Notes: generated from the sequence alone by a model not told the origin. A DNA stretch of 64,000 nt from Nitrospirales bacterium (GCA_965223765.1 OZ245016.1:594654-658653); one strand, 5' to 3'; positions 2,564 through 42,340 are shown, counted from the first letter of the stretch. Program-made: numbers and translations.

Positions 2564-2593
2564 GCGTTAATACGTTAAGGAAACAGTTAACGC
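2564..2593. promoter_or_regulatory. putative upstream activator sequence for the sigma-54 activator
   Basis: GCGTTAA-N16-TTAACGC inverted repeat containing AACAGTTAAC, about 120 bp upstream of the -24/-12 site. Confidence 0.6.
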
Positions 2594-2709
2594 CTTTGGT
2601 TCACGTTTTCCCATGTTACTGGTGATCTGGGACCATTCCATTCCTCATATTTATATTTAAGTATATGTTTTTATTAAAATTTTAATATCTTATGAACATG
2701 AAGGTACTA

Positions 2710-2725
2710 TGGTATAGATGTTGCT
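2710..2725 (+). promoter_or_regulatory. sigma-54 -24/-12 promoter
   Basis: TGGTATAGATGTTGCT (GG-N10-GC), preceded by an AT-rich tract. Confidence 0.8.
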
Positions 2726-2799
2726 GAACAACAGTTGCCAGTTGCCTAGCAATATGGCCAACATTGCAGGACTTATTACTTAACACGGGAGAGACCGGA

Positions 2800-4242
2800 A
2801 TGTTTCTGAAGCAGTTTTACTTACCCTGTTTGGCCCATGCTTCTTATATGGTTGCGGACGAGTCAAGTCACACAGCCATCATCGTGGATCCGCAACGAGA
2901 TATTGATCAGTATGTACAGGAGGCCCGTTCCCATGGATGCCAGATTCGTTACGTATTCCTTACTCATTTTCACGCGGATTTTTTGGCGGGGCATCTGGAA
3001 ATTCAGAAACTGACTGGTGCGGATATCTGTATGGGTTCTAACGCCCAAACCGATTTTTCTATCACCACATTTAAGGATGGCGAGGTCCTCGAGTTTGGAA
3101 CCGTCAAAATCAAGGTCTTGGAAACACCCGGCCATACACCAGAGAGTATTTCATTAGTCGTCTATGATCTCACTACCAGTTCTGAGCAACCACATAGCGT
3201 CCTGACCGGTGACACCCTATTCATTGGTGATGTAGGACGGCCCGACCTTATGGCATCTGTAGGACTCTCTGCCGAAAAGCTGGGTGGCCACTTATATGAT
3301 TCTCTTCGAAACCAATTGATGCCGTTGCCGGATGAAACCTTGGTGTACCCCGCTCACGGTGCGGGATCCATGTGTGGGAAAAATCTGAGTCGTGACACTG
3401 TTTCAACGATAGGCAAACAGCGACGGGAAAATTACGCGCTACAACCCATGACAAAAGATGAGTTTATTCGGTTAATCACCGCCGATCAGCCAGAAACGCC
3501 AGCCTATTTTGGTTATGACGCGCAGATGAATCGGAAAGCACACCAGACTCTGGAAGAGGTTGTGAGAAACAGTTACCGTCCCTTGAACATGGGTACCGTG
3601 TTGGACTATCAACGCAAGGGAGCGCACATTCTTGATGCCAGGGAGGCTGCTGATTATGCCCGAGGTCATCTAGAAGGGAGTCTCAATATTGGGTTAGAGG
3701 GAAAATTTGCGACATGGGCAGGCACGTTACTCGACATACGACGTCCGGTGGTGTTGATCACAACGCCCGGAACAGAAAAAGAAGCCATTGCTCGTTTAGG
3801 TCGTATTGGGTACGACCGAGTTGTAGGGTATGTGGAAGGCGGCATACACGCCTTCGTAGAACGACCTGACTTGATGCAACAGACCCACCGTATTTCGGCG
3901 CAACGCTTAGCGGAATTACTGACCACAAATGATTCCCCCACGGTAGTGGACGTCCGTACCGAAAAAGAATGGAACGCCGGACATATCGATTGGAGTATCA
4001 ATATTCCTTTGCCACACCTGGCCGAAGAGATTCATCGGATTCCTGAGAAATCACGGATAGTCGTACATTGTGTCAGTGGCTATCGATCATCCGCCGCCAT
4101 TGGAATTTTGGAGCAAGCCGGAAAATATGAACCCATGGATTTGATCGGTGGCTACGACGCCTGGATTACCACCTGGGGACACTCCAAACAGACGCATTCG
4201 TTAGAATGCACTACAAGTGGTACAGCAGAACGAACAACATGA
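2800..4242 (+). CDS. MBL-fold persulfide dioxygenase with pseudo-rhodanese and rhodanese domains (CstB/Blh-like)
   Basis: THFHADF metal motif, TPGHTPES, TGDTLFIGDVGRPDL, YPAHGAGSMCG, C-terminal HCVSGYRS; ATG 2800 with GGAGAG RBS. Confidence 0.88.
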   Translation: MFLKQFYLPCLAHASYMVADESSHTAIIVDPQRDIDQYVQEARSHGCQIRYVFLTHFHADFLAGHLEIQKLTGADICMGSNAQTDFSITTFKDGEVLEFGTVKIKVLETPGHTPESISLVVYDLTTSSEQPHSVLTGDTLFIGDVGRPDLMASVGLSAEKLGGHLYDSLRNQLMPLPDETLVYPAHGAGSMCGKNLSRDTVSTIGKQRRENYALQPMTKDEFIRLITADQPETPAYFGYDAQMNRKAHQTLEEVVRNSYRPLNMGTVLDYQRKGAHILDAREAADYARGHLEGSLNIGLEGKFATWAGTLLDIRRPVVLITTPGTEKEAIARLGRIGYDRVVGYVEGGIHAFVERPDLMQQTHRISAQRLAELLTTNDSPTVVDVRTEKEWNAGHIDWSINIPLPHLAEEIHRIPEKSRIVVHCVSGYRSSAAIGILEQAGKYEPMDLIGGYDAWITTWGHSKQTHSLECTTSGTAERTT

Positions 4243-4252
4243 GGAGAAGGCT

Positions 4253-4837
4253 ATGAACACTATACTCGACCATCAAGACACAGCAAATACGAATGCCACT
4301 CACAGCCGTACGAATTTGGGAAACGCCCCCGTGTATATTGACGTCAGAACGCCCCTGGAATTTGAGACGGTGCATATTCCCGAGGCCCGTAACATTCCTC
4401 TGCCAGAGCTCCATCGCTATTTAGGCGAACTCAAAACTCTTTCTGAAGACCACACCCTCATGTTGGTATGCCGCACACAAAATCGAGTCAAGATCGCCTA
4501 TGACTACCTCACGAATAACGGTCTCACCAATTGTGATATCCTCGAAGGGGGTATCACAGCCTGGATTGCACAGGACAAACCAGTGATCAGGGGACCTCAA
4601 CGACTCTCGCTCGAAGGGCAAGTGCGAGCGATCGCCGGGGGATTGATTCTGCTGGGAGTCGCAACGGGATTTTTGGTGCACAATGGGTTCTTTTTCTTAC
4701 CAGTCCTTGTCGGTGCTGGACTTCTCCATGCTGGATTAACAGATTCCTGTCTGATGGGCTTAGTACTCGCCAAACTTCCCATGAATACGACTGGAAATAC
4801 CCCCTCCTCAATTGAAAAGAAAGGAGGCCGGCCATGA
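4253..4837 (+). CDS. rhodanese + DUF2892 (YgaP-like) membrane protein
   Basis: IDVRTPLEF..HIP, active-site CRTQNR, LEGGITAW, C-terminal TM pair with GLTDSCLM; RBS GAGGAG before ATG 4253. Confidence 0.85.
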   Translation: MNTILDHQDTANTNATHSRTNLGNAPVYIDVRTPLEFETVHIPEARNIPLPELHRYLGELKTLSEDHTLMLVCRTQNRVKIAYDYLTNNGLTNCDILEGGITAWIAQDKPVIRGPQRLSLEGQVRAIAGGLILLGVATGFLVHNGFFFLPVLVGAGLLHAGLTDSCLMGLVLAKLPMNTTGNTPSSIEKKGGRP

Positions 4838-5055
4838 ATTGTCCACGATGTGAAGGTCTACTCATGAGCGATCAAGTGTTTCACTCAGCGGAAGCCCTCT
4901 ACATGTTATCGATTTGGCGGTGTTTGAACTGCGGCGAGGTGTTTGATTCCACTACCCTTCAAAATCGTACGAACCAGAACAAGAATGGGGCCCTGGCTCA
5001 TCCAAAGTCTACCCATTGGTCCGACGCCCGAAGCCCGTTGGCTATCAGAGGGTAG
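4834..5055 (+). CDS. small zinc-ribbon-like protein (CxxC...CxxC)
   Basis: MNCPRCEG...WRCLNCGE; ATGA overlap with upstream stop; GGAGG RBS. Confidence 0.7.
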   Translation: MNCPRCEGLLMSDQVFHSAEALYMLSIWRCLNCGEVFDSTTLQNRTNQNKNGALAHPKSTHWSDARSPLAIRG

Positions 5056-5123
5056 AAGACCTATAATTTTTCTCAGACAGATTCAGATTGGTCCGTTACA
5101 TCATCAACCATAAGGAGGTCTCA

Positions 5124-5642
5124 ATGCATCGTTCAATCCGTTCATATTGTGTCGTTGGCGCATTTAGCCTGTTCGCAATGGGGTGTATGACCACCCCAGC
5201 CATGAGCGACGGGCCTGGCCCAGCTCAAGGGTATGATATTCATGTTCAAGCCCCGCATCTGATGCCGGATGGGACACCTGGAGGACCATTTCATCACTAT
5301 TGCAAAGGAATTAGCGACAAGATTTTGCAATGTCTTCTGTTTGAAACCACAGAAGCCAATGCCCCCTTAGTGGCAATAGAGTACTTCGTCGCCAAAGATC
5401 TTTCACGAAAACTCCCGCTAATCCAATGGCATCGATACTTCCATGACCACAAGCAAGAAATTGCGACTGGTCGAGTGCAGATTCTCGACATTGAAGATCA
5501 AGAAAAAGTCAAAGCCATCGCTGATGCCGCGTCTAAGACCGATGGCGTCATTTATCATCTCTGGCAAAAAGGAAAAGAATTCCCCGATGGGACGGTCACG
5601 TACCCCCAGTCCCTAGGGCATATTTTCAACCAGCCGGAATAA
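5124..5642 (+). CDS. DUF1264/OBAP-like exported protein, possible lipoprotein
   Basis: HHYCK, QCLLF, AIEYFV, HDH motifs; signal peptide ending FAMGC; AAGGAGG RBS. Confidence 0.7.
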   Translation: MHRSIRSYCVVGAFSLFAMGCMTTPAMSDGPGPAQGYDIHVQAPHLMPDGTPGGPFHHYCKGISDKILQCLLFETTEANAPLVAIEYFVAKDLSRKLPLIQWHRYFHDHKQEIATGRVQILDIEDQEKVKAIADAASKTDGVIYHLWQKGKEFPDGTVTYPQSLGHIFNQPE

Positions 5643-5656
5643 CCATCTAGGCGAAA

Positions 5657-5679
5657 CGGGGGACCATTATGGTCCCCCG
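5657..5679. repeat. perfect 11-bp-arm inverted repeat
   Basis: CGGGGGACCAT-T-ATGGTCCCCCG between two genes. Confidence 0.75.
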
Positions 5680-5681
5680 CG

Positions 5682-6179
5682 TTGCCAGAGCATGGGGCCA
5701 TGACACCTCAAAAGTTTGCAAGAACAGTAGAGACTTGGGGACTCGTCCTGAGCATGATGAGCTATAGTCTCGTCGCCGTAGCAGCAGACCCAGCTGTCTT
5801 AACGCCACGAGTGCCGGCGGATCAAATGAAAGAAGTCCGAACCTGGACAAATCCGTTTCCGTCAACGTCGGAGAATATAGAAAAAGGCCGAAAGATTTTT
5901 CACGGAAAAGCATTTTGTGTCACCTGTCATGGACGTGACGGCAAAGGGCTCGGGAACATTCCCGGCTTGCGTGGAAAATTGCCTCGAAACTTTACGGATA
6001 CCACTTGGCAGGCAGCACGCACAGATGGGGAATTATTTTGGATCTTGAAAAATGGAAGCCCAGGAACAGATATGGCCTCCTTCGTGCCGCTGGTTCTCAG
6101 TGAACAGGAAGCTTGGTATGTGTTATTATATGTCAGAGCATTCGGTAACAAGGTATCGCTGGGAGAATCCACACCATGA
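5682..6179 (+). CDS. monoheme cytochrome c (start possibly 5700)
   Basis: signal peptide, CVTCH, distal Met in GSPGTDM. Confidence 0.85.
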   Translation: MPEHGAMTPQKFARTVETWGLVLSMMSYSLVAVAADPAVLTPRVPADQMKEVRTWTNPFPSTSENIEKGRKIFHGKAFCVTCHGRDGKGLGNIPGLRGKLPRNFTDTTWQAARTDGELFWILKNGSPGTDMASFVPLVLSEQEAWYVLLYVRAFGNKVSLGESTP

Positions 6180-6580
6180 CTGGCCTGCCCGCCCTTGCTT
6201 TTTCCAGTTGGCTCGTCTTCTCTTCTGTTCAGATTTCCAACCCAGCTCTTAGTTCTCTGCCACCCGAACCTGATGAAACTAGCCGGATCGATGAAATCTA
6301 CGACCAAGAATCCCGCCTATTTCTGTCTCTCTACTCCTTGAAAGGTAATGGAGAAGTCGACTACATCACGGGGCGTACCGTAGAAGGACATATCCGAAGT
6401 TCCTATGGGAATCCCGTCTACTATCTTCCTGAACACCCGATCTTCTATTGGTGGAACCACACCATGTGGAACGATCCCTTGTTAGATGGCGTCAATGGCA
6501 ATGAATTAGTGTATCAAGAAGATACTGAATTCGATGTGAGCCGCTACAAACCCTGCCTCTTCAATGGACAACCGTGTTAG
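6176..6580 (+). CDS. exported hypothetical protein
   Basis: ATGA overlap with the cytochrome gene, hydrophobic N-terminus. Confidence 0.65.
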   Translation: MTGLPALAFSSWLVFSSVQISNPALSSLPPEPDETSRIDEIYDQESRLFLSLYSLKGNGEVDYITGRTVEGHIRSSYGNPVYYLPEHPIFYWWNHTMWNDPLLDGVNGNELVYQEDTEFDVSRYKPCLFNGQPC

Positions 6581-6715
6581 AAGAAATCGTCTTCACTATT
6601 CTTGATCTGTCAGTAAACAACCCCCAGCTTTCCATATCAACAAAACCTAAAATAGGATTCTATGGAGAATAAACAACTGGAGAAAAAGGTTAGTGGAATT
6701 TTTGATCAATACAGA

Positions 6716-8341
6716 TTATTGGGTAAAGCATGTTATCGCTTTGCATAGAATCTGATCTGATTCTCCATAGTGCTCAATACTTTGCGTGAGAAGAAATTCT
6801 CCAGCTCGCATTACGTGTTCTGATCCGTACGCGCGCGTCAAGTCTTTACTTGCCAAGATATAACAAAGAGTGGCTCCGGCAAAAGCAACCGCACGTGGGG
6901 CCATTTGTGGCCACGAGTCACTGATTCCTCGTTGATAGGTATCAACGATGGTCTGGATGGTCGTATACCAAGAATTGTCTGCAGATGAATTTAAAGCCCA
7001 ATAGACGTAATGCCCAAGAAACATTCCCAGATCCAAAGCTGGGTCGCCCCAACTGGAGCTGCGTTCGAAGTCGATCACACCTATTTCCCCATCCCGGAAC
7101 AATACATTTTTAGGATGAAAATCCAGATGCAGAAAACAAGGTTGCGCGACTTGCTCGCTGGCAAGCTTGAGATTCTTCAGATTGCTAAATGTATCTATTG
7201 AGAACTTTTCTGATGGAAGGGCCACGGTATACAGATCGAGAATCGACTTCCAATGTTTCTGGTCGGCCTCTGGAGTACCCCATAGAACTGGGGCATGGGG
7301 TATCGTATGGCATTTCCTGAGAAATTGGCAGGCCTTGCTAGCGATGACTGGATCAAAAATGCCTCGCTGAAGGTTGTCTTGTAGCGAAGAGCCGTGGGGA
7401 CAGACTTCAGACAACACAACGATCCACGTCTTTTTATCAAAGTGAATCACTGTAGGAATTTCAAAATCCGTATTGAGATGCGTGGCCAACCATTTCAGGA
7501 CTTTCCGTTCGACTGAAAGACGTTCCCGGGGTTTCAGAGTGTGAGCTCCGCTCCACTCTTCTATTCCCAGAGCATCTCCAGCATACTTGATGAAGACAAC
7601 ACGTTCATCTTCGAGTCTGGCGCGAAATACCTGATCTGGTTTGTCTGATGATGAGCAAGATAGTTTTTTTATAGGCCCAAGATTGCTTCGGTTCATCACC
7701 GCATGAATTTTCGCTTGCACGATCGTCTGGAGTTCCAGGATACCTTCCTGGCAGATTGCCCAAATTTCTTCACGCTGCTGGCACGTGAGATGATTGGGAA
7801 GGGCTGAGAAGAATCTGCTCTTTCCAGCATCACCTTCAATGAGTGCGGTCCGTAAATCCGCTGAACGTACCGAATACGCGCCTGTTGGCGCTTGAATGAT
7901 GTTGGCATCAACTCCATATTGCCTCTCCAATTCTTCGAGCTTCCTAAATCGATCGTCACCCCGCTTGAGATCAGTCTCACCAAGACAAAACAATAGCGAA
8001 TCTCCATTCTGACAATGGGCAAAATACTTGAGTGCATGTCCAACAGCGGTGTGCGAGGCAATCTCTATTCGAACTTTCTCAAGATTCCCCAAGAAAAGCA
8101 GCCAAATTCGTCGGGCGATCGTGGCATCAAGAGCTAAAGTTGTTCCCGGGATTAATCGAGCCCGATTAGAAATAATAACCACGATTTCATCGATATCGGA
8201 TCGTGTCAGAAGATAACGCACTGCAGCATAGTGCGCGGCATGGGGGGGGCGAAAAGCGCCAGGATACAACGCGATGACACGTCCAGCTGATTTCTTTGTG
8301 GAGATAAATTCCGAGATCTGATGACTCATCGTGCGATTCAT
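6716..8341 (-). CDS. cytidylyltransferase-like domain fused to an APH/methylthioribose-kinase-like phosphotransferase
   Basis: N-terminal YPGAFRPPHAAH (HxGH-type); C-terminal HLDFHPKN...VIDFE...GDPALDLG. Confidence 0.75.
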   Translation of the reverse strand: MNRTMSHQISEFISTKKSAGRVIALYPGAFRPPHAAHYAAVRYLLTRSDIDEIVVIISNRARLIPGTTLALDATIARRIWLLFLGNLEKVRIEIASHTAVGHALKYFAHCQNGDSLLFCLGETDLKRGDDRFRKLEELERQYGVDANIIQAPTGAYSVRSADLRTALIEGDAGKSRFFSALPNHLTCQQREEIWAICQEGILELQTIVQAKIHAVMNRSNLGPIKKLSCSSSDKPDQVFRARLEDERVVFIKYAGDALGIEEWSGAHTLKPRERLSVERKVLKWLATHLNTDFEIPTVIHFDKKTWIVVLSEVCPHGSSLQDNLQRGIFDPVIASKACQFLRKCHTIPHAPVLWGTPEADQKHWKSILDLYTVALPSEKFSIDTFSNLKNLKLASEQVAQPCFLHLDFHPKNVLFRDGEIGVIDFERSSSWGDPALDLGMFLGHYVYWALNSSADNSWYTTIQTIVDTYQRGISDSWPQMAPRAVAFAGATLCYILASKDLTRAYGSEHVMRAGEFLLTQSIEHYGESDQILCKAITCFTQ

Positions 8342-8373
8342 GGATTGGCAGGAATAGGTGATAGAAGAAAAAG

Positions 8374-9867
8374 CTAGAAAGATAGTTGGATGTCGAAACG
8401 CGCTTCGAATGCGGGGTCATCATCAATGAAAGCTTTTCCTGGCATAAAATACCCTGTTCTGAGGCGGAACCGCATATTTTGAATGGCTCGAACCCCAACG
8501 ATAAGATCGATTTCTTTTCCAAGATCTTTGTTGGCGCCGTTTAGGTCGCCTCTGACATCGATATCTCGTAGCTCATCCGAACGCCAATTTTGTTTGTAGT
8601 AGTGGTAGACGATATCTATCGATGTTCTGGGAATGGGCCGAAAGCCAATGCCGACCGTATAGATGTGCATGTTGCTGAGTTCAGGATCGAATAGCACACC
8701 GTAATAGTCAAAGTTCACGACACCTCCGAACTTCCCTGAATTGTTCTGGAACCCAGTCTGCCGAAAATTTCGGTCATTTCCCTTTGATGAATCATTGTCA
8801 CCAGAGCCATATGCGAATCCCAGAGTGAAATACGGTTGGAAAGCAATCTTTCTAGCGATATACGTCGCCCCAACATCAAAGGCAAAACCTCTGATCGCCT
8901 GACCTTGTTGAGTCCCTCCTACAAATGCAGCATCGATCCAGTATCGAAGGCGGGGCTTAAAGAATTCTCTCAAGGTCCCGGATTCGAATAGATCGAATTT
9001 GAACTTCGGCCGTCCGTAGGAGCGAATGCCAACCCAAATCGGATTATCGTCGTTAGAGGATGTATCTTTCCTCTGCAAGACATAACTACTCAAGAATGAC
9101 TTTTGTTTTTGAGGCCCAATCACATATCCTGTTTCGAACAGGAGGTCAAACTGCCGGCGTTTTCGAAAAATATCATCGAAATAGCGATAATCTTCTTCTC
9201 GATCAAGGACTGGGGTTGAGATGGAAGTTTTGAAATGCCAGGGATCAGGGTCAAAGAAAAAACGAATGCCATCCAATTCTTCATTGAGATACCAGCGTCT
9301 TGGCTCAAAAAACTGTTGCCTTCCAACTCTCAGGGCAGATGGAATGGTAAATGGTAATGGAGCCTGAATGAAGAGCTCGTTTACTTGGGCCTCGACTCTG
9401 TTGACCTTCTCGACATTTTCCTGAAAGGTCAATTCATCTTCAATGCCCAACTCGGAAAAAAAATAAAACCCCTGAGGAAAAGTTAAGATAAAGTTCACAT
9501 CTAATCCGGGAGTGAAACGAAGACGATCTTGTTGATTGTTCTTGTCAAGATTGAGGTTGTCTTGCCAGGTGGTGTCTACATTCAATGCTCCTGTAAATGT
9601 CAGAAGGGTGTTGCCGATTGTCGCTTGAATTTGTGAATCGGGACGGAGTCTCTCGTCATCCCCACGCAGTGCGATGGCGTTGGTTTCTTTTTCGAGTTCT
9701 TTCTTTTGTTGGTCCGGGTCTGTTTCGACAGAAGGTGGAGGAGCCACAGTCGCGGCATGTACCATTTCAATTTTCCACCATGGAACATGATCGGAGCAGG
9801 CAAGGACTAAAACGTACAGAACTCCCAGAAGCCAGATGTTTGTTCGTCGAGACACGATGGACGTCAT
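8374..9867 (-). CDS. alginate export (AlgE-like) outer-membrane porin
   Basis: beta-strand pattern, VGRQQF...WY...DG, GSGD...FRQTGFQNN, DLGKEIDL, terminal Phe. Confidence 0.8.
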   Translation of the reverse strand: MTSIVSRRTNIWLLGVLYVLVLACSDHVPWWKIEMVHAATVAPPPSVETDPDQQKKELEKETNAIALRGDDERLRPDSQIQATIGNTLLTFTGALNVDTTWQDNLNLDKNNQQDRLRFTPGLDVNFILTFPQGFYFFSELGIEDELTFQENVEKVNRVEAQVNELFIQAPLPFTIPSALRVGRQQFFEPRRWYLNEELDGIRFFFDPDPWHFKTSISTPVLDREEDYRYFDDIFRKRRQFDLLFETGYVIGPQKQKSFLSSYVLQRKDTSSNDDNPIWVGIRSYGRPKFKFDLFESGTLREFFKPRLRYWIDAAFVGGTQQGQAIRGFAFDVGATYIARKIAFQPYFTLGFAYGSGDNDSSKGNDRNFRQTGFQNNSGKFGGVVNFDYYGVLFDPELSNMHIYTVGIGFRPIPRTSIDIVYHYYKQNWRSDELRDIDVRGDLNGANKDLGKEIDLIVGVRAIQNMRFRLRTGYFMPGKAFIDDDPAFEARFDIQLSF

Positions 9868-9976
9868 AACGTCGCTGGTCTGTAGGCTCTAGACACGCGC
9901 ATGACGTCCAAGAGTGGTTCGAAAAGTCTGCGCTGAACAGAAGAGTCTCTATAAAAACATGGCCGCATCTTGATTC

Positions 9977-31923: not shown

Positions 31924-31954
31924 GTTTACCGTTCAAGGTCATGACACGTCTAAT
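31924..31954 (+). promoter_or_regulatory. putative autoregulatory ECF sigma promoter
   Basis: GTTTAC-N17-CGTCTAAT, about 60 nt upstream of the sigma ATG. Confidence 0.72.
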
Positions 31955-32013
31955 TTTGCAACAAGCTGACCTTCTGAGGAGTTGCATGCAGGGGAGCCGA
32001 TGGAGTTATCCCC

Positions 32014-33338: not shown

Positions 33339-33388
33339 ATGCCATCCCACTTGCAGGAGAGGAAGCTGTTGGATACTCTCTGGAAGAT

Positions 33389-33769: not shown

Positions 33770-33778
33770 CCATGCAAG

Positions 33779-34771: not shown

Positions 34772-34774
34772 GGC

Positions 34775-35719: not shown

Positions 35720-35881
35720 AAACACTCGACTCCTTGTGGTGATTGGTATGATAGGTATTATTTGATCAGGCAGCAAGACAAGATCTAGAACTGTTATCGG
35801 TTTGACCATAAAGTCTTCATGGGGGCTTCGAGAAACAAGAAATATCGCTATGGAGTAGATAATTCAATTGGCTGTCTGCAT

Positions 35882-35910
35882 TTAGACATTCTAAAGATCC
35901 AATGGTAAAC
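35882..35910 (-). promoter_or_regulatory. putative ECF sigma promoter
   Basis: minus strand GTTTAC-N16-TGTCTAA upstream of the beta-barrel gene. Confidence 0.65.
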
Positions 35911-36094
35911 ACCATCTAAGTTCTCGGATTCCAGAAGGCGTATCATACCTGGATAGAGAACAGACCACTCGTTGGTCACAACCAGTAGCTCTTGTATACT
36001 GTTTCTGAACCGAGGGTCACACATCGGATGATGATATTGGGATACCGGCGAGTAGACAATAAATATATTATATCAATTCCTGACCCTATACTTA

Positions 36095-36766
36095 ATGGAG
36101 ATGGTCATCATGTCTGATGAATACACATACGAAGAGTTACAGAAACTCGTTGATACGTTAACGGAAAGGGTTGAGAAAGCTGAGAAGTTTTGCCGAAGTT
36201 TCTTTGAAAATAGCCATTCCATTATGGTCATTATTCACCCAGAGACCGGAAAGCTTCTCGACGCCAATAGGACAGCCTGCGAATACTATGGCTATACCAA
36301 ACGGGAACTCACGAATATGAAGATCATGGAGATCAACATGCTTCCTCAAGACCAAGTATTTGAGAAAATGCAGGAAGCTCAAAGAGGGCAACAGAAGCAT
36401 TTTATCTTTCGCCATAGACTGTCGAGCGGAGAAATAAAAGATGTTGAAGTCTTTAGTGGACCGATTACCAAAGATGGTGAAGAAGTGTTGTATTCCATTA
36501 TCCATGATATTTCTGAACGGAAAACACACGAACGAGAGAGAGAACACCTCATTACGAAACTTGAGCAAGCCCTTGCTGAAATAACGACCCTACGAGGGAT
36601 CCTACCTATCTGTGCAACTTGCAAAAAGATTCGGGACGACAAAGGCTATTGGAGTCAAATCGAAACGTATATTCGGACTCATTCAGAAGTAGAGTTTACT
36701 CATGGGATTTGCCCGGAATGCGAAGGAAAAAGTTACTCAAGCTTAAATAAATCTGGTGGTAACTGA
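36095..36766 (+). CDS. PAS-domain protein with Cys/His-rich C-terminal tail
   Basis: PAS (DANRTACEYYGY); LPICATCKKIRDDKGYW...FTHGICPEC. Confidence 0.85.
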   Translation: MEMVIMSDEYTYEELQKLVDTLTERVEKAEKFCRSFFENSHSIMVIIHPETGKLLDANRTACEYYGYTKRELTNMKIMEINMLPQDQVFEKMQEAQRGQQKHFIFRHRLSSGEIKDVEVFSGPITKDGEEVLYSIIHDISERKTHEREREHLITKLEQALAEITTLRGILPICATCKKIRDDKGYWSQIETYIRTHSEVEFTHGICPECEGKSYSSLNKSGGN

Positions 36767-37083
36767 AGGCGTAATTAGCTCAAGCTCACTCGGCAATGGA
36801 CAGCTAATTCATCACAATGATGTATGTTCCATTTGTCACATTGAATGGAATACTCAGTTATTCTCCAGCCACAGAAATCCCATGAAAAAAAGAACAGATT
36901 ATTCCTTCACACATCTGGGCCTCTGCCATAATGAAAAATTTCTATTTCGTTTTTGCATGATTCAACACTGACTTTCAGGCTTTCTCCGAACCTGTCTCAG
37001 GTGATGGCCATATCACTGAAAGTGTCTTAATCAAAAACAAGGGTTCGGTAAAATCAGTTAGCGGAATTGTTAACCCTCACTAC

Positions 37084-37109
37084 TTAACTGTTAACGATTT
37101 TGCGTTAAC
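37084..37109. promoter_or_regulatory. putative upstream activator sequence
   Basis: TTAACTGTTAAC plus a second GCGTTAAC, about 108 bp upstream of the -24/-12 site. Confidence 0.6.
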
Positions 37110-37202
37110 TAGTCTGTTCTATCTCCTCATTGTTTTCGAGTTTTATTCTATAAATCATTGTTTTTAAAGTAAAAATATAGAGATATTCCTCAACATGGTT
37201 TA

Positions 37203-37218
37203 TGGCCCCAGCCTTGCT
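37203..37218 (+). promoter_or_regulatory. sigma-54 -24/-12 promoter
   Basis: TGGCCCCAGCCTTGCT. Confidence 0.75.
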
Positions 37219-37289
37219 GAATGGGTCTGAATAATTCAATTTCAAGTTACGAAAAGGCCTTCAGAATCAAAGTGACTTCAATGCGATGG

Positions 37290-37506
37290 GAAGGGTCAAA
37301 GTACGTCCAGGAAGGCCGCTGACTGCCTGGCTCGTCTCGAAGAGCGACTCCATTGTATTACGCGTGGAGCGTTCCTTCTGTACGTGAGCGCTCACGGCCC
37401 GAAGAGGGCTTTCGTTTGGTCCGTCCTCTTAGGCGGGATCGTTGCTGTGAGCCCGAAGGTCCGGAAAATTGCGAGAATGCCACTGGCGGATTTTTTCAGA
37501 GGCTCC
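37290..37506. repeat. MITE-like dispersed repeat in the 5' leader
   Basis: ends GTCCAGGAAGGCCGC... and ...GCGAGAATGCCACTGGCGGATTTTTTCAG resemble a Nitrospira-type repeat as I recall it (unverified); internal palindromes such as GTGAGCGCTCAC. Confidence 0.4.
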
Positions 37507-37536
37507 TTGTTACAAGGAGGTTCGAGGGATGGAGCT

Positions 37537-39207
37537 ATGAAACTACAAAAGATTGTTATCGTTGGGGGAGTGGCTGGCGGAGCCAGTGCAGCCGCGAAGG
37601 CCCGCCGAACGAACGAAACGGCCGACATTACCATTTTTGAAAAAGGCCCCTATGTGTCCTTTGCTAACTGCGGGCTTCCCTATTATGTTGGAGAAACGAT
37701 TCAGGATCGGGATGAACTCTTGCTGCAAACGCCGGAGCGATTTTGGAAACGATTTCGTGTTCAAGTCCACGTCTTACACGAGGTCCTAAAAATTGACCGG
37801 GTGACAAAGCAGGTCAGCGTAAAAAATATCATTTCAGAAGAAGTGACATCCCACCCATATGACAAATTAATTCTGGCTCCGGGAGCTGGAGCAATCGTGC
37901 CAAAAATTCCTGGCATTCAGGCCAAGAATATTTTTTCCGTCAAAACTGTTCCTGACTCGGATAGAATTAAATCGTTTCTTCACGACCACCCCTCCCAGAA
38001 GGCATTAGTCATTGGTGGTGGCTTTATCGGACTGGAAACGGCCGAAGCCTTGGCGAATCGAGGGCTAGCGGTGACCATCGTTGAGAAAGCTCCGCACATT
38101 CTCCCCCCTTTTGATTCAGACATGGCAAGACTTGTTGCCCACCACATAAAAGAGAAAGGGCTGGCCATCATCACCGGCGATGGTATTGCAGGATTTCGTC
38201 AAGATGGGGAGTTCGCCCATGAAGCTGCATTAGAAAGCGGGAAACGGCTCCCCATGGATCTTGCCATCCTCTCAATTGGCGTTCGTCCGGAATTGAAACT
38301 TGCACGAGAGGCCGGCCTGGAAATTGGTGCGTCAGGGGGGATTGCCGTCAATGCACGACAGCAAACATCTGATCCCGATATCTATGCGGCAGGAGATGCT
38401 GTTGAAACCACGCATTTGATCACAGGGAGACAAACACGCATTCCCTTAGCAGGACCAGCCAATAAACAAGGAAGGGTCGCCGGTGCAAATGCCGCGGGAA
38501 GAGATTTACAATTCGATGGAGCGTTAGGTACCGCTATCGTTGAAATAATGGGTATCACCGCTGCCAAAACAGGGTTGACTGGTCAGGAAGCCGAGAGGCA
38601 TGGGTTACAATTTTTCGTCTCAGTCACTCACCCGTTAGATCACGCCGGATACTATCCCGGTGCTGAAGCCCTCCATATGAAATTAGTGGTAGAAGAAGAA
38701 ACCGGAAAACTTCTGGGCGCCCAAATTGTGGGTGAACAGGGAGTGGACAAACGGATTGATGTGCTGGCCACAGCATTACATGCCAAGATGAGAGTCCAGG
38801 ATTTGGAGCAACTGGATTTGGCCTATGCCCCACAATTTAATTCAGCCAAAGGTCCGGTCATCATGGCAGGATTTGTGGCGGCCAATACCCTACGAGGGGA
38901 AGTGACGATCATCACCGGGGAAGAATTGAAAAAAAGACTCGAAGCAAACGCATCGCTTCAATTGTTAGATGTCCGAACTCCAGGTGAATATCAAAAAACC
39001 CACCTACCTCAAGCCCGCCTGGTTCCGGTGGATGATCTCAGAGATCACCTCCAAGATTTGGATCCTACCCAAGAAACCGTCGTCTATTGCCGCGTAGGAT
39101 TACGCGGCTATCTTGCCGCACGTATTCTCCTCCAACATGGCTTTACGAACGTCTCAAATCTTACCGGTGGAATACTCAGTTACTCTCCATCTACAGAAAA
39201 ATCTTGA
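37537..39207 (+). CDS. CoA-disulfide/persulfide reductase with C-terminal rhodanese (CoADR-RHD/Npsr-like)
   Basis: GGVAGG, SFANCGLPY, GGGFIGLE, YAAGDA, DLAYAPQF, rhodanese YCRVGLRG. Confidence 0.9.
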   Translation: MKLQKIVIVGGVAGGASAAAKARRTNETADITIFEKGPYVSFANCGLPYYVGETIQDRDELLLQTPERFWKRFRVQVHVLHEVLKIDRVTKQVSVKNIISEEVTSHPYDKLILAPGAGAIVPKIPGIQAKNIFSVKTVPDSDRIKSFLHDHPSQKALVIGGGFIGLETAEALANRGLAVTIVEKAPHILPPFDSDMARLVAHHIKEKGLAIITGDGIAGFRQDGEFAHEAALESGKRLPMDLAILSIGVRPELKLAREAGLEIGASGGIAVNARQQTSDPDIYAAGDAVETTHLITGRQTRIPLAGPANKQGRVAGANAAGRDLQFDGALGTAIVEIMGITAAKTGLTGQEAERHGLQFFVSVTHPLDHAGYYPGAEALHMKLVVEEETGKLLGAQIVGEQGVDKRIDVLATALHAKMRVQDLEQLDLAYAPQFNSAKGPVIMAGFVAANTLRGEVTIITGEELKKRLEANASLQLLDVRTPGEYQKTHLPQARLVPVDDLRDHLQDLDPTQETVVYCRVGLRGYLAARILLQHGFTNVSNLTGGILSYSPSTEKS

Positions 39208-39350
39208 AAAACGGAACCGATTATTCCTGCACACCTCTGGCTTAGAGGCCTGCCTAGAACTTTCAACTGTTTGTTGACTGATTCCACACAAAAGAATTCA
39301 CTTCAATTAGAGTTTTGGGGAAATCAGTTAGCTGAACCGTTAAGACCAAC

Positions 39351-39362
39351 TTAACAGTTAAC
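39351..39362. promoter_or_regulatory. putative upstream activator sequence
   Basis: TTAACAGTTAAC, 109 bp upstream of the -24/-12 site. Confidence 0.6.
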
Positions 39363-39470
39363 ATTCCTTCCTTAACTATTCTCTTCTATCTCCTCATGAT
39401 TTTTCGAGTTTTATTCTATAACTAATTGTTTTCAAAATAAAATATCGGACATATTTTTGAACGTGAATTA

Positions 39471-39486
39471 TGGTACCAGGCTTGCT
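39471..39486 (+). promoter_or_regulatory. sigma-54 -24/-12 promoter
   Basis: TGGTACCAGGCTTGCT. Confidence 0.8.
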
Positions 39487-39532
39487 GAATAGAGAAATAG
39501 GACGATTACAAACAATCAGCAGGGAGGGAATT

Positions 39533-39745
39533 ATGTTGAGAAATGTTGGAGAGACAGAAAAGGGAATTCGACTGGTGTTAGGAGGACTTCTTCTTGTGGC
39601 GACCTTCGTTCTCGATTTGCCCACTTGGGGGACGGCCACATTGGGTGTGATTGGGATTGTGGCCTTAGTGACTGGAGCGATGGGGTACTGCCCGGCTTGG
39701 ACCATTTTTGGAATTAATACATGCCGGACTAAGTCTACAACCTAA
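39533..39745 (+). CDS. DUF2892 (YgaP-like) small membrane protein
   Basis: NVGETEKGIRLVLG, two TMs, TG...YCPAW..FGINTC; GGAGG RBS. Confidence 0.85.
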   Translation: MLRNVGETEKGIRLVLGGLLLVATFVLDLPTWGTATLGVIGIVALVTGAMGYCPAWTIFGINTCRTKSTT

Positions 39746-39760
39746 CCAGATGATTAATTC

Positions 39761-40339
39761 ATGAAACCGACTTACACATCAATTCCAGCTCAAAGAAACA
39801 CGCCAGGAAAAGAACAGACAACCTCCATTAGTGGATGGGCGACTCCACTCCTCATGTCCTTCTTTCTGAGCGTACCCACTGCATTGGCACAGCAGCATGG
39901 GCATCAGCAGATGATGATGCCCAGAGTGCCAGCAGATAAATTAGAAGAAGCCCGAGCCTTGAGGAACCCATTGACAGCTTCACCGAGTATCATTGAACAG
40001 GGGAAATTCATTTATGAAGGCAAAGGCACCTGTATGAATTGCCATGGCGTCAATGGCCGTGGGGATGGGCCAGGCGCGGCCACCCTCAATCCACCGCCAC
40101 GCGTATTTCGCTCCCATGGATTTTGGCGACATCGAACGGAAGGTGAAATCTTTTGGGTCATCAAACACGGGTCCCCTGGAACAGCCATGATTCCTTTTGG
40201 TGGGATACTCACAGATGAAGAAATCTGGACGGTCATGCTGTATGAAAGGAGTTTTGCCAGTGGTTCGCCTGGCGGAAGAGGTCCTCGCCAGGGGCGACGA
40301 GGCGGGGGTGGAATGGGCCACGGTCATCATAGGCGATAA
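39761..40339 (+). CDS. monoheme cytochrome c, paralog of 5682..6179
   Basis: PRVPAD, CMNCH, EGEIFWVIKHGSPGTAM. Confidence 0.85.
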   Translation: MKPTYTSIPAQRNTPGKEQTTSISGWATPLLMSFFLSVPTALAQQHGHQQMMMPRVPADKLEEARALRNPLTASPSIIEQGKFIYEGKGTCMNCHGVNGRGDGPGAATLNPPPRVFRSHGFWRHRTEGEIFWVIKHGSPGTAMIPFGGILTDEEIWTVMLYERSFASGSPGGRGPRQGRRGGGGMGHGHHRR

Positions 40340-40394
40340 CCCTGTTCTCCACTCGAATGTACCATACTGCAGTAGGTCCAAAAGGAAACAGACG

Positions 40395-41093
40395 ATGAAT
40401 TGTCATTATGCAAAACAACAAATTCTACATTGGTTTGGTGCGATTATTGGGGGCGCCATGTTTGTGTTGTGGGGGACAGTTCCTACGTTCTCAGCCGAAA
40501 CCCAGTTACCCGTGGATGGAAAACAACTTGTCCAGGCTCGATGTGTAAGTTGCCATCGTATCAAGGGGTTGCCTTCACCACGATCTGCTAAGAATGCCCC
40601 AGATTTAATTTGGGCAGGGAGTAAATACCAACACACCTGGTTGGTTCGTTGGCTACAAGACCCGAAAGAAAAACTCTATCCTGTTGGCTATGATTTTAAC
40701 TTCAAACGAAAAGGGCCACACATGGCCATCTCCGCTGCCGAAGCAAGAAAGGTGGCAAACTTTCTCGGCACGTTGAAGGATGTACGTGTCACAGAAGGCC
40801 TGATGAAATCAGGGACGCCACAAGAGCTGTCCCGCGGGAAACAACTCTACCGTGAGCACGGATGCCAAAATTGCCATCGGACACCCGCTAACAACAAGCG
40901 AGGCTATACCGGAGGCACCTCAAGTACCTCTCTAGTCAACATGGGCAATCGGCTACAAGGTGATTGGGTCTACCGATTTAATCTTAATCCCGATGATTTT
41001 GTGCCGGAGAGTGGAGCGTATATTCCCAATCCTTTGCTTCCCGATTCCGATATCTATGCGATCACGGCCTATATGATGACCTTTGGGAATTAA
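40395..41093 (+). CDS. diheme cytochrome c
   Basis: CVSCH and CQNCH; signal peptide; AGGA RBS before ATG 40395. Confidence 0.85.
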   Translation: MNCHYAKQQILHWFGAIIGGAMFVLWGTVPTFSAETQLPVDGKQLVQARCVSCHRIKGLPSPRSAKNAPDLIWAGSKYQHTWLVRWLQDPKEKLYPVGYDFNFKRKGPHMAISAAEARKVANFLGTLKDVRVTEGLMKSGTPQELSRGKQLYREHGCQNCHRTPANNKRGYTGGTSSTSLVNMGNRLQGDWVYRFNLNPDDFVPESGAYIPNPLLPDSDIYAITAYMMTFGN

Positions 41094-41142
41094 CCTAGCA
41101 TATTCTGTGTGTGAACATGCCCCAGGAAGGAGAGATCTAGAA

Positions 41143-41514
41143 ATGGCGAAAGGGATTAAGGCGAAGGTTAGGCTACCATTGATCAACCTGATGACCGTGC
41201 TCGGTATATTGTGGATAATCGGGACAGCCCCTGCAGCTGGTAATGGAGATCCTGAAAAAGGCAAAGATCTCTTTCGAGAAAATTGTCAGCATTGCCACGG
41301 ATTTTCCGGGAAGGGGGATGGTGAAATGGCTTCATACCTCACCCCGCCTCCATCTGATCTGGGAAGCCAGACAACGCAAGCCAAGTCTGATGCAGAGTTA
41401 AAGAAGGTTATTCTTAAGGGAAAAGAAGGAACCGCGATGGCTGGGTTTGAAGGGGCCTTAGAAGACTCGCAACTGAATAATCTATTGGCCTACCTTCGAT
41501 CACTCAAGTCGTAA
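41143..41514 (+). CDS. monoheme cytochrome c
   Basis: CQHCH, GTAMAGF. Confidence 0.85.
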   Translation: MAKGIKAKVRLPLINLMTVLGILWIIGTAPAAGNGDPEKGKDLFRENCQHCHGFSGKGDGEMASYLTPPPSDLGSQTTQAKSDAELKKVILKGKEGTAMAGFEGALEDSQLNNLLAYLRSLKS

Positions 41515-41569
41515 GATTGTCAACATTGAGACTTCATTCCTTATAGACCCTGCGAAAGGAAGTCCGACC

Positions 41570-42184
41570 ATGAAAGCTAAGACCACTTCGTTAAAGGCAA
41601 CAGGCGTAGTGGGTTCTGTGTTCATCATGCTGACTGTTGGGATAGCTTTGGCTGACCTCAGTCAACATGAACAGGCTGCGGTAAAAGTCACGGGAACCTT
41701 TCTACAAGAATTGAGTACGGCCATGAAACAGGAAATGGGAAAAGGAGGGCCATTAGAGGCCATTAAGGTTTGTGGAGAATTGGCTCCGGAAATTGCCAAC
41801 CGCTTATCACGAGAAAATGGATGGCGAGTCACGCGTGTGGGGACTCGAGTACGGAACCCCTTGCTTGGAACGCCGGATGCGTGGGAGCAGAAAATCCTTG
41901 GAGAGTTTTCCACACGTGCCGCAAAAGGAGAAGCCCTGAACACAATGACGCACAGCGAAGTGGTATCAGAGCCTGATGGAGAATATTTTCGATTCATGCA
42001 ACCGATTGCTGTTCAGCCCCAATGCCTTCTCTGTCATGGTCCGGCCGAAACCATTCCAGAGTCGATCAAGAAGGTCTTACATACCCACTACCCCTTCGAT
42101 GCGGCCACGGGATATAAAGCCGGAGATCTACGGGGAGCCGTGAGTATCAAGCAGCCACTGACTTCGGCACCAACCGGAGGATAA
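41570..42184 (+). CDS. Tll0287-like (DUF3365) heme c protein
   Basis: AIKVC, RVGTRVRNP, PDAWE, FRFMQPI, CLLCHG, GYKAGDLRGAVS. Confidence 0.85.
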   Translation: MKAKTTSLKATGVVGSVFIMLTVGIALADLSQHEQAAVKVTGTFLQELSTAMKQEMGKGGPLEAIKVCGELAPEIANRLSRENGWRVTRVGTRVRNPLLGTPDAWEQKILGEFSTRAAKGEALNTMTHSEVVSEPDGEYFRFMQPIAVQPQCLLCHGPAETIPESIKKVLHTHYPFDAATGYKAGDLRGAVSIKQPLTSAPTGG

Positions 42185-42216
42185 AGACATTTTCCTTTCA
42201 GACATATATTGAACAA

Positions 42217-42228
42217 TTAACTGTTAAC
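42217..42228. promoter_or_regulatory. putative upstream activator sequence
   Basis: TTAACTGTTAAC, 97 bp upstream of the -24/-12 site. Confidence 0.6.
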
Positions 42229-42324
42229 CCTTAACACCCTCTTTCTTTAAGCGTGCCATTCTCTTTTGAGGTTTGCAAAGTATTGAAGATTAAAAGTTTT
42301 TCTGGTTCTATTTTTTGTACAATT

Positions 42325-42340
42325 TGGTGCTGATTTTGCT
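42325..42340 (+). promoter_or_regulatory. sigma-54 -24/-12 promoter
   Basis: TGGTGCTGATTTTGCT. Confidence 0.75.

What the first reader, a model, noticed from the sequence alone, without database searches (positions are those of the whole stretch)
2564..42340. Sigma-54 sulfur regulon with a shared TTAACWGTTAAC enhancer motif
Seen: four GG-N10-GC promoters (2710, 37203, 39471, 42325) each have TTAACWGTTAAC or a 10/12 variant 97-120 bp upstream, with an AT-rich spacer. They head the dioxygenase-rhodanese operon, the CoA-persulfide reductase, the DUF2892-cytochrome operon and the tetraheme cytochrome. Established: enhancer-binding proteins act from such sites via DNA looping. Inference: the PAS-NtrC at 1102-2544 is the activator, and two loci 35 kb apart form one sulfide/persulfide-responsive regulon.
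Basis: partly seen in the sequence, partly recalled or inferred. Interest (0 to 1): 0.72.

Follow-up and report, generated by a model that had tools for sequence, protein, structure and literature searches.

The report
Sigma-54 sulfur regulon with GTTAAC enhancers
A marine Nitrospira-type nitrite oxidiser appears to switch on four sulfur-detoxifying/oxidising gene units through one sigma-54 activator that binds clusters of GTTAAC upstream of each promoter; the wiring is conserved in about 75 related genomes, but what the activator senses is still only inferred.

Summary
The exact 12-mer TTAACWGTTAAC was found three times in the 3.79 Mb genome on the strand scanned. All three copies lie 97-109 bp upstream of good sigma-54 promoters (TGG-N9-TTGCT) at 37203, 39471 and 42325. 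The fourth promoter (2710) has a degenerate copy.

Among 626 sigma-54-like sites genome-wide, these four have the most TTAAC/GTTAA pentamers upstream. The true element is an array of 3-5 GTTAAC-like hexamers.

In 65 of 76 Nitrospirales loci tested, the orthologous activator gene is followed by such an array and then by a sigma-54 promoter. The arrays sit at -150 to -95 from the TGG. An IHF-like, AT-rich spacer lies between them and the promoter.

In genus-mates the two "distant" loci form one cluster of about 17 kb. Here a block of about 30 kb (glycan/ECF genes, by earlier notes) splits them.

So the regulon and its activator are well supported, though only by inference. The sulfide/persulfide signal rests on gene content alone. 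The sensor is a LOV-like PAS domain with four invariant cysteines and without the flavin-binding residues.

The closest analogue is FisR. I class this as a new variant of a known kind.

The parts
46..1047 (+). Conserved 333-aa protein of unknown function, always just upstream of the activator gene in relatives
   Evidence: No Pfam family. 74-81% identical and syntenic in L117-L119.
1102..2544 (+). Sigma-54 enhancer-binding protein: LOV-like PAS with four invariant Cys (C73, C81, C102, C106), an AAA+ domain with GAFTGA, and a Fis-type HTH. The likely true start is M19 at 1156.
   Evidence: Pfam PAS_9, Sigma54_activat 1e-68, AAA_lid_14 and HTH_8. Sequence. Cys invariant in 76/76 orthologues and recognition helix SRVTLWKK invariant. 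It is the only EBP in the window, out of 20 in the genome.
2567..2591 (+). Upstream activating array 1 (degenerate): GTTAAT-ac-GTTAAG-gaaaca-GTTAAC
   Evidence: It aligns with the consensus GTTAACnnGTTAA[CG]TTAACnGTTAAC found at this position in orthologous loci.
2710..2725 (+). Sigma-54 promoter P1, TGGTATAGATGTTGCT
2800..6580 (+). Operon 1: persulfide dioxygenase with two rhodanese domains (2800-4242), rhodanese-YgaP membrane protein (4217-4837), 73-aa Cys-rich protein, DUF1264, monohaem cytochrome c, 134-aa protein
   Evidence: Pfam. HFHADF and the rhodanese CVSGYR loop. The same gene order is found in relatives.
37057..37109 (+). Upstream activating array 2: GTTAGC-N6-GTTAAC-N8-CTTAAC-t-GTTAAC-N8-GTTAAC
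   Evidence: the densest pentamer cluster in the genome, 7 hits.
37151..37163 (+). IHF-like site TAAATCATTGTTT in the AT-rich spacer
   Evidence: The same element at -52 occurs in about 45% of 70 aligned promoters. Three HU/IHF-family genes are in the genome.
37203..37218 (+). Sigma-54 promoter P2, TGGCCCCAGCCTTGCT
37537..39207 (+). CoA-disulfide-reductase-type flavoprotein with a C-terminal rhodanese (CoA-persulfide/polysulfide reductase type). The ORF opens at 37384; the likely start is M52.
   Evidence: Pyr_redox_2 4e-61 plus Rhodanese. TIGR03385 474 bits. SFANCGLPY and CRVGLR active-site motifs.
39327..39376 (+). Upstream activating array 3: GTTAGC-N6-GTTAAG-N5-CTTAAC-a-GTTAAC-N8-CTTAAC
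   Evidence: Conserved upstream of the DUF2892 gene in G007/G017.
39419..39431 (+). IHF-like site TAACTAATTGTTT
39471..39486 (+). Sigma-54 promoter P3, TGGTACCAGGCTTGCT
39533..42184 (+). Operon 3: DUF2892/YgaP-like membrane protein, three c-type cytochromes (1, 2 and 1 haem), Tll0287-like haem protein
   Evidence: Pfam. CxxCH counts.
42210..42235 (+). Upstream activating array 4: TGAAC-aa-TTAAC-t-GTTAAC-c-CTTAAC (7-bp period)
42325..42340 (+). Sigma-54 promoter P4, TGGTGCTGATTTTGCT
42441..47238 (+). Operon 4: tetrahaem cytochrome c (42441-43865), double-PAS histidine kinase (43912-45498), SorA-type sulfite dehydrogenase (45624-46871), SorB-like monohaem cytochrome
   Evidence: Pfam. SorA 591 bits against a cut-off of 600. 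4 CxxCH. The same genes are clustered with the activator in relatives.

Best explanation
The 1102-2544 gene encodes a sigma-54 enhancer-binding protein specific to a branch of Nitrospirales.

Proposed mechanism:
- Its Fis-type HTH binds arrays of GTTAAC-like hexamers with a TTAAC-N-GTTAAC core. The arrays lie about 95-150 bp upstream of the -24 element of four sigma-54 promoters.
- An AT-rich, IHF-like spacer bends the DNA. The AAA+ ring, with its GAFTGA loop, can then contact sigma-54 holoenzyme and open the promoter.
- The N-terminal LOV-like PAS domain with four invariant cysteines gates the ATPase.
- The most likely input is reactive sulfur (sulfide-derived persulfide or polysulfide) acting on those cysteines, as in FisR.

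The regulon makes a route from persulfide to sulfite to sulfate: a persulfide dioxygenase-rhodanese, rhodaneses, a CoA-persulfide reductase type enzyme, SorAB and eleven c-type haems.

Status of each step:
- Shown: the sites, their genome-wide uniqueness, their conservation next to the activator gene, and the single-cluster ancestry.
- Inferred: binding by this protein (about 0.8), co-induction (about 0.75), and sulfur as the signal (about 0.55).
For: Sites and uniqueness.

Activator domains, GAFTGA and Walker A. There is one rpoN and 20 EBPs in the genome, and only this EBP lies in the window.

Phylogenetic footprint:
- In 65 of 76 orthologue loci a sigma-54 promoter with 3-9 TTAAC/GTTAA pentamers follows the activator's stop codon.
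- Pentamer coverage peaks at 80% at -130..-121 and is about 0 elsewhere. An IHF-like site sits at -52, and AT content is 85% at -40..-21.

Co-occurrence:
- The composite pattern occurs in 11/18 and 12/17 genus genomes.
- It occurs in 1/12 and 6/88 genomes of other families, which lack the activator in the 12 that were checked.
- The reversed-pattern control gives 0/31 and 3/151 genomes.
- CoADR homologues in genomes without the activator have no arrays (L095/L096).

Single cluster in relatives, with 2-4 composite sites each.

Recognition helix SRVTLWKK is invariant in 76 orthologues. It is also present in a 51%-identical hydrothermal-vent homologue that again precedes a persulfide dioxygenase gene. 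No other EBP in the genome has this helix.

The distance from core to promoter falls in steps of about 11 bp: 104, 115, 116 and 126 in the window, with modes near 103/115/126/138 in 68 cores.

Sensor cysteines.

Precedent for a sigma-54 sulfide sensor: FisR (PMC7315123; Li 2017, cited in PMC12170894).
Against: - There are no binding or expression data.
- Promoters P2 and P3 are paralogous, and orthologous promoters are not independent observations.
- Array 1 in this genome is degenerate (10/12 core).
- The cluster also carries a PAS histidine kinase. In one relative a response regulator sits behind an array promoter, so a second regulatory layer exists.
- One paralogous EBP has a similar helix, GRSTLWRKVK.
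- The signal is inferred from gene content only. The PAS resembles LOV domains, and four cysteines could equally hold a metal or Fe-S cluster.
- No SQR stands in these units, so the source of persulfide is unclear.
Confidence: 0.7

Rival explanations
1. The regulon and activator are the same, but the input is redox state, O2 or NO, sensed by a metal, Fe-S cluster or flavin held by the LOV-like PAS. Sulfur chemistry on the cysteines is not the trigger. The sulfur genes would then be switched on under hypoxic or reducing conditions, where sulfide is expected.
For: - Best sequence and fold matches are LOV domains, and C73 aligns with the photoactive Cys.
- Four invariant Cys is the usual number for a cluster or Zn site.
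- The AF2 model has low confidence exactly around the Cys segments, as is usual for cofactor sites.
- PAS Fe-S and flavin redox sensors that feed regulators are known (NreB, cited in PMC9918477; NifL from my own knowledge).
Against: - Both phosphate-binding Arg and both Gln of the LOV flavin pocket are replaced. The pocket Asn after C102 varies in distant homologues.
- The Cys spacing C-x7-C-x20-C-x3-C is unlike NreB's.
- Two distant homologues keep only three Cys. C73 and C106 are the only ones present in all, which fits a dithiol switch.
- Every regulated unit is a sulfur or cytochrome function.
Confidence: 0.2
2. A different protein binds the GTTAAC arrays. Candidates are the paralogous EBP with the helix GRSTLWRKVK, or an unidentified response regulator fed by the cluster's PAS histidine kinase. 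The adjacent activator would serve only operon 1, or something else.
For: - Assignment rests on adjacency and co-occurrence only.
- There are 20 EBPs in the genome, and one has a similar helix.
- A histidine kinase is conserved in the cluster, and a response regulator sits behind an array promoter in G008.
Against: - Arrays start within tens of bp of the activator's stop codon in 65 of 76 loci.
- Arrays and activator share the same phyletic range.
- The recognition helix is invariant, as is the hexamer.
- The histidine kinase lies downstream of an array promoter, so it is a target rather than the master.
Confidence: 0.07
3. The shared motif is a by-product of promoter duplication and common descent. 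It has no role as a binding site.
For: P2 and P3 are paralogous along about 190 bp. Orthologous intergenic regions are related by descent.
Against: - The hexamers are conserved while the flanks diverge down to 70% protein identity.
- P1 and P4 share nothing with P2/P3 except the hexamers, the spacer type and the promoter.
- Positions are sharply fixed.
- The pattern is absent from the rest of the genome.
Confidence: 0.03

Closest known systems
FisR of Cupriavidus pinatubonensis JMP134 and Acinetobacter baumannii (sigma-54 activator of sulfide-oxidising genes)
   Same: - It is a sigma-54 enhancer-binding protein with an N-terminal sensor, an AAA+ domain and a Fis-type HTH.
- Its gene lies next to a persulfide dioxygenase operon headed by a sigma-54 promoter.
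- In Cupriavidus, regulatory-domain cysteines sense sulfane sulfur (PMC7315123, PMC12170894, PMC12754779).
   Different: - Here the sensor is a LOV-like PAS with a C-x7-C-x20-C-x3-C set. Orthology of the sensor domains could not be tested because no FisR sequence was at hand.
- There is no sqr in the units.
- The regulon has four promoters and includes CoA-persulfide reductase, SorAB and many cytochromes.
- The gene is co-directional with its target, not divergent as in A. baumannii.
- The GTTAAC array motif is not reported for FisR in the papers I could read.
LOV (light-oxygen-voltage) PAS domains, such as Chloroflexus Cagg_3753 and short LOV proteins
   Same: - Best sequence match (E 2e-7) and best fold match (TM about 0.8 to the targets).
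- The Cys is at the photoactive position of G-x-N-C-R-F-L-Q-G.
- N- and C-terminal helices are present.
   Different: - The motif is G-x-S-C-H-x-L-E-G.
- The two Arg that hold the FMN phosphate are lost, and the I-beta Gln is Phe.
- A five-residue insert carries C106.
- Three extra invariant Cys are present.
CstR-controlled cst / CoAPR systems of Staphylococcus and Enterococcus, and SqrR/BigR regulons
   Same: The output genes are of the same type: a persulfide dioxygenase-rhodanese fusion, rhodaneses, and a CoADR-rhodanese persulfide reductase.
   Different: Those systems are sigma-70 units released by dithiol repressors. Here activation goes through sigma-54 and a distant enhancer.
NreBC of Bacillus licheniformis (PAS kinase that senses sulfide for sqr-pdo)
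   Same: A PAS sensor controls sulfide and persulfide oxidation genes (PMC9918477).
   Different: That is a two-component system with a sigma-70 promoter. Its PAS is proposed there to use haem. No relation was tested here.

Membership tests
Bacterial enhancer-binding protein (NtrC/NifA class) with its sigma-54 promoter | Sigma-54 interaction AAA+ domain with Walker A and the GAFTGA loop | tested here: met
   PF00158 1.1e-68 over residues 168-334. GESGTGKE and GAFTGA are present in the sequence.
Bacterial enhancer-binding protein (NtrC/NifA class) with its sigma-54 promoter | C-terminal Fis-type HTH | tested here: met
   PF02954 2.6e-13, residues 435-470.
Bacterial enhancer-binding protein (NtrC/NifA class) with its sigma-54 promoter | rpoN in the genome, and -24 GG / -12 GC promoters in front of the target genes | tested here: met
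   One Sigma54_DBD gene at 199 bits. Four TGG-N9-TTGCT sites lie in intergenic DNA.
Bacterial enhancer-binding protein (NtrC/NifA class) with its sigma-54 promoter | Upstream activating sites about 100-200 bp from the promoter, bound by the protein | tested here: inconclusive
   Conserved, position-fixed arrays are shown. Binding itself cannot be tested with these tools.
FisR-type sulfide/sulfane-sulfur sensor | Gene next to a persulfide dioxygenase operon with a sigma-54 promoter | tested here: met
   Window. Roughly half of the 80 related loci have the dioxygenase directly downstream. The same holds in a distant homologue.
FisR-type sulfide/sulfane-sulfur sensor | Induction by sulfide or polysulfide | not testable with these tools
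FisR-type sulfide/sulfane-sulfur sensor | Regulatory domain homologous to that of FisR, with its sensing cysteines | not tested
The papers say these cysteines are not conserved even between Cupriavidus and Acinetobacter (PMC7315123).
FisR-type sulfide/sulfane-sulfur sensor | sqr co-regulated with pdo | tested here: not met
   No SQR among the Pfam-annotated genes of the four units; the only flavoprotein is the CoADR-rhodanese. SQR is reported lacking in N. marina and rare in lineage IV (PMC8115632, PMC12342949).
LOV photosensor | PAS fold of LOV type with Cys at the adduct position | tested here: met
   phmmer to 6rhg at 2.4e-7, with C73 aligned to the LOV Cys. Foldseek top hits are all LOV, probability 1.00. 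The model has mean pLDDT of only 71.
LOV photosensor | Flavin-binding motif GXNCRFLQ plus the second Arg, two Asn and the I-beta Gln | tested here: not met
   The motif is SCH[MI]LEG. Both Arg are replaced and the I-beta Gln is Phe. The Asn after C102 varies (N/D/E/R) in distant homologues.
NreB-type Fe-S PAS | C-x2-C-x11-C-x2-C cluster motif (from my own knowledge of NreB) | tested here: not met
   The spacing here is C73-x7-C81-x20-C102-x3-C106.
CoA-disulfide reductase-rhodanese (CoA-persulfide / polysulfide reductase type) | CoADR fold with a redox Cys, plus a C-terminal rhodanese with a catalytic Cys | tested here: met
   TIGR03385 474 bits, below the equivalog cut-off of 579. Pyr_redox_2 plus Rhodanese. 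SFANCGLPY and CRVGLR motifs.
SorA sulfite dehydrogenase | NCBIfam SorA equivalog score | tested here: inconclusive
   591.2 bits against a cut-off of 600, over the full length. Followed by a monohaem SorB-like gene.

The most novel reading that the evidence does not exclude
A LOV-derived PAS domain has lost its flavin pocket. It has been rebuilt around four cysteines, including the former photoactive one, into a sensor of reactive sulfur or of an Fe-S/redox state.

This sensor drives a dedicated, enhancer-controlled route from persulfide to sulfite to sulfate that feeds c-type cytochromes. Marine lineage IV Nitrospira would then use reduced sulfur as a regulated electron source and not merely detoxify it.
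Probability: 0.2. Interest if true: 0.8.

Novelty: new variant of a known kind. Interest (0 to 1): 0.55.

Why it matters
Nitrospirales are the main nitrite oxidisers in many habitats. Whether they use reduced sulfur is stated as open in the literature (PMC8115632, PMC12342949).

A conserved, dedicated sigma-54 regulon gives a concrete handle on that question. It provides one activator to delete or express, four promoters to fuse to reporters, and a defined DNA motif for predicting the regulon in any genome of the group.

It also adds a second, apparently unrelated sensor design to the only known activator-type sulfur sensor, FisR. And it shows a LOV-type scaffold used without its flavin residues.

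Tried and rejected
- Geometry of the four cysteines: the AF2 model had mean pLDDT 71 and below 60 around the Cys segments. No coordinates are exposed to scripts. I could not tell whether the four Cys form one site.
- Rfam scan of the whole window for leaders or riboswitches in the long 5' regions: no match.
- Sigma-70-like promoters or terminators in 36-48.5 kb: fewer than in shuffles, so uninformative.
- NCBIfam gave no equivalog for the activator; the best was PrdR at 378 bits against a cut-off of 795.
- The strict pattern TTAACNGTTAA-N95-125-TGGN9TGC misses the arrays of the small-genome sister genus, where hexamers are spaced by 2 and 8 bp. It under-counts and should not be read as absence.
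- Further regulon members in this genome: the pentamer-cluster scan and the promoter scan found none beyond the four.
- Literature: no paper in the library describes this regulon or motif in Nitrospira.
- A direct FisR comparison was not possible because no sequence was at hand.
- Light sensing was considered and set aside because the flavin-binding residues are missing.

Full report
**Observation**

All four promoters read TGG-N9-TTGCT. Three also share ATGG...TTGCTGAA.

The 12-mer TTAACWGTTAAC is exact at 37084, 39351 and 42217, and 10/12 at 2580. It ends 108, 109, 97 and 119 bp before the TGG. GG-N10-GC alone is not enriched in the window (117 against 122 expected), so the promoters by themselves prove nothing.

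The combination, however, is unique:
- The exact 12-mer was found three times in the 3.79 Mb genome on the strand scanned, and all three are here.
- Of 626 sites matching TGGCAC-N5-TTGCW at 9/11 or better, these four carry 7, 5, 4 and 5 TTAAC/GTTAA pentamers at -60..-220. No other site has more than 3.
- A genome-wide search for pentamer clusters returns the same four places as the densest or most compact clusters, and no convincing fifth.

Two corrections apply. First, the P2 and P3 regions align as paralogues along about 190 bp, so they are duplicates. Second, the 12-mer is only the core of arrays of three to five GTTAAC-like hexamers. For example, array 2 reads GTTAAC-N8-CTTAAC-t-GTTAAC-N8-GTTAAC and is itself symmetric.

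**Genes**

The window lies in a Nitrospirales genome (48.6% GC, one contig). The literature places sorAB-bearing Nitrospirales largely in marine lineage IV (PMC12342949).

The 1102-2544 product is PAS + sigma-54 AAA+ (GAFTGA) + HTH_8.

The four regulated units are:
- P1 heads a persulfide dioxygenase with two rhodanese domains, a rhodanese-YgaP membrane protein, a small Cys protein, DUF1264, a cytochrome c and a 134-aa protein.
- P2 heads a CoADR-rhodanese flavoprotein with both catalytic cysteines.
- P3 heads DUF2892, four haems in three cytochromes, and a Tll0287-like haem protein.
- P4 heads a tetrahaem cytochrome, a double-PAS histidine kinase, and SorA/SorB.

The genome has one rpoN and 20 enhancer-binding proteins. 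Only one of these lies in the window.

**Comparative evidence**

A scan of one genome per species found 78 Nitrospirales loci and one Planctomycetota locus with an orthologue of the activator, at 63-90% identity.

Of 76 loci that could be tested, 65 show a sigma-54 promoter (TGGCAYA-N4-[TA]TGC) within 450 bp after the activator's stop codon. Between stop codon and promoter lie 3-9 TTAAC/GTTAA pentamers. The genome-wide density of these pentamers is 0.0011 per bp.

The usual layout is GTTAAC-nn-GTTAA[CG]-TTAAC-n-GTTAAC-G, often followed by N8-GTTAAC. The degenerate array 1 of this window (GTTAAT-ac-GTTAAG-GAAAC-a-GTTAAC) fits it with two changes.

I aligned 70 promoters on the TGG:
- Pentamer coverage is 80% at -130..-121, 22-61% from -150 to -95, and about 0 elsewhere.
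- An IHF-like YAA-N4-TTGDTW sits at -52 in about 45%.
- AT content peaks at 85% at -40..-21.
- Three HU/IHF-type genes are present in the genome.

This is the textbook enhancer-bend-promoter layout.

The gene behind the promoter is the dioxygenase in about half of the loci. In the rest it is the next gene of the same operon (rhodanese-YgaP, DUF1264 and so on).

**One cluster, split here**

In genus-mates the activator and the CoADR-rhodanese gene lie only 8-11 kb apart. Three such regions (L117-L119) hold every component in one block of about 17 kb, with 2-4 array-plus-promoter composites each. The components are the unknown 333-aa gene, the activator, operon 1, the histidine kinase, the reductase, the tetrahaem cytochrome and SorAB.

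In the window a block of about 30 kb (6.7-36 kb) separates the two halves. Earlier notes read this block as glycan/ECF genes. IS-type integrase genes with identical repeats follow the second half. The "35 kb apart" in the finding is therefore a recent rearrangement of a single unit, which supports a common function.

**Co-occurrence**

The strict composite pattern was tested in two genome samples.

| Group | Relatives sample | Order sample |
|---|---|---|
| Genomes of the same genus with the pattern | 11 of 18 | 12 of 17 |
| Genomes of other families with the pattern | 1 of 12 | 6 of 88 |
| Genomes matching the reversed-pattern control | 0 of 31 | 3 of 151 |

- The activator's PAS domain is present in 16 of 18 genus genomes and in none of the 12 genomes of other families that were searched.
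- The hits in other families are single sites, and those I could read look like coding sequence.
- CoADR homologues in two genomes without the activator have no arrays (L095/L096).
- The sister genus with small genomes has the activator at about 70% identity and GTTAAC arrays with other spacings. The strict pattern misses those.

**Who binds**

This is inferred.
- The recognition helix SRVTLWKK is invariant in 76 orthologues, as is the hexamer.
- None of the other 19 EBPs in the genome has this helix. The nearest is GRSTLWRKVK.
- A homologue from a hydrothermal-vent metagenome, 51% identical in the PAS domain, has the same helix. It is again followed by a persulfide dioxygenase gene, with GTTAAC and GTTCAC hexamers in between.

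The core-to-promoter distances in the window are 104, 115, 116 and 126 bp. In 68 cores from 98 distinct composites they pile up near 103, 115, 126 and 138. This suggests face-of-helix phasing. Many of these promoters are related by descent, so I treat it as suggestive only.

**The sensor**

Four cysteines (C73, C81, C102, C106) are invariant in 76 of 76 orthologues. They lie in G-x-S-C-H-x-L-E-G-x-N-C-K-G-F and P-W-G-I-C-N-Q-E-C-K-V.

The nearest solved relatives by sequence and by fold are LOV domains, and C73 aligns with the photoactive cysteine. The residues that hold the flavin are mostly gone: both Arg are replaced and the I-beta Gln is Phe. In distant homologues the pocket Asn also varies.

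In eight more distant representatives the architecture, where it can be seen, is again PAS-AAA+ (several are fragments). Five keep all four Cys. Two keep only three. One is frame-disrupted past C81. C73 and C106 are present in all seven that can be read at those positions. That fits a dithiol switch of the SqrR/CstR/FisR kind, but a metal or Fe-S site is not excluded.

The structure model is of middling quality, with its lowest confidence at the Cys segments. I could not measure distances.

**Comparison with known systems**

The logic is that of FisR, the sigma-54 activator of sulfide-oxidising genes in Cupriavidus and Acinetobacter (PMC7315123; PMC12170894; PMC12754779). The outputs resemble the cst/CoAPR sets of Firmicutes.

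The differences are the LOV-like four-Cys sensor, the GTTAAC arrays, the lack of sqr, the multi-promoter regulon with SorAB and eleven haems, and the host.

Papers on Nitrospira note SorAB and the open question of sulfur use, but describe no such regulon (PMC8115632, PMC12342949).

**Verdict**

- The regulon and activator reading is well supported by inference (about 0.8).
- The sulfur signal is plausible (about 0.55).
- This is a new variant of a known kind.

Noticed in passing
window 47371-53869: Four rve-type integrase/transposase ORFs lie directly after the sulfur cluster: 47371-48438(-), 49519-50574(-), 52040-52888(+) and 52979-53869(-). There are 100%-identical repeats at 49693-49992 = 52982-53281, and 49483-49701 is 99% identical to 51456-51674. 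They look like nested or interrupted IS copies and may have mediated the split of the ancestral cluster.
   Followed up: partly
window 6716-36000: The block between the two sulfur loci is absent from the corresponding place in three genus-mates, where p134 and the CoADR-rhodanese gene are 1.4-5.2 kb apart. Earlier notes read this block as glycan/ECF genes. It is therefore an insertion or rearrangement in this genome.
   Followed up: partly
window 36095-36766: A 223-aa PAS protein ends in a Cys-rich tail, LPICATCKKIRDDKGYWSQIETYIRTHSEVEFTHGICPEC. It has no counterpart in the relatives' clusters L117-L119.
   Followed up: no
window 43912-45498: The histidine kinase has two near-identical PAS repeats, each with SH..WHHT..DGSPYP.E.CPIY.AYKDGQVHQG. 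No receiver gene lies beside it here. In G008 (L119 about 14150; L087) a response-regulator gene sits directly behind a GTTAAC-array/sigma-54 promoter, so the regulon may include a second regulatory tier.
   Followed up: partly
window 46-1047: A 333-aa protein with no Pfam family is 74-81% conserved and always sits immediately upstream of the activator gene in relatives. Its function is unknown.
   Followed up: partly
window 37036-37225 and 39304-39493: The two promoter regions are paralogues. The closest relative (G007) has only a weak array before its reductase gene but a good one before DUF2892. This suggests that a copy of the DUF2892 promoter was recruited to the reductase gene in this genome.
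   Followed up: partly
window 37229-37537: The leader between the predicted P2 start site and the likely start codon of the reductase (M52 of the ORF) is unusually long, about 300 nt. It has no Rfam match.
   Followed up: partly
window 4834-5055 and 6176-6580: Two small conserved proteins of operon 1 have no family. One is 73 aa with CPRC...CLNC, resembling a zinc ribbon. The other is 134 aa, has a signal-like N-terminus and ends in C-x6-C. Both are syntenic in relatives.
   Followed up: no
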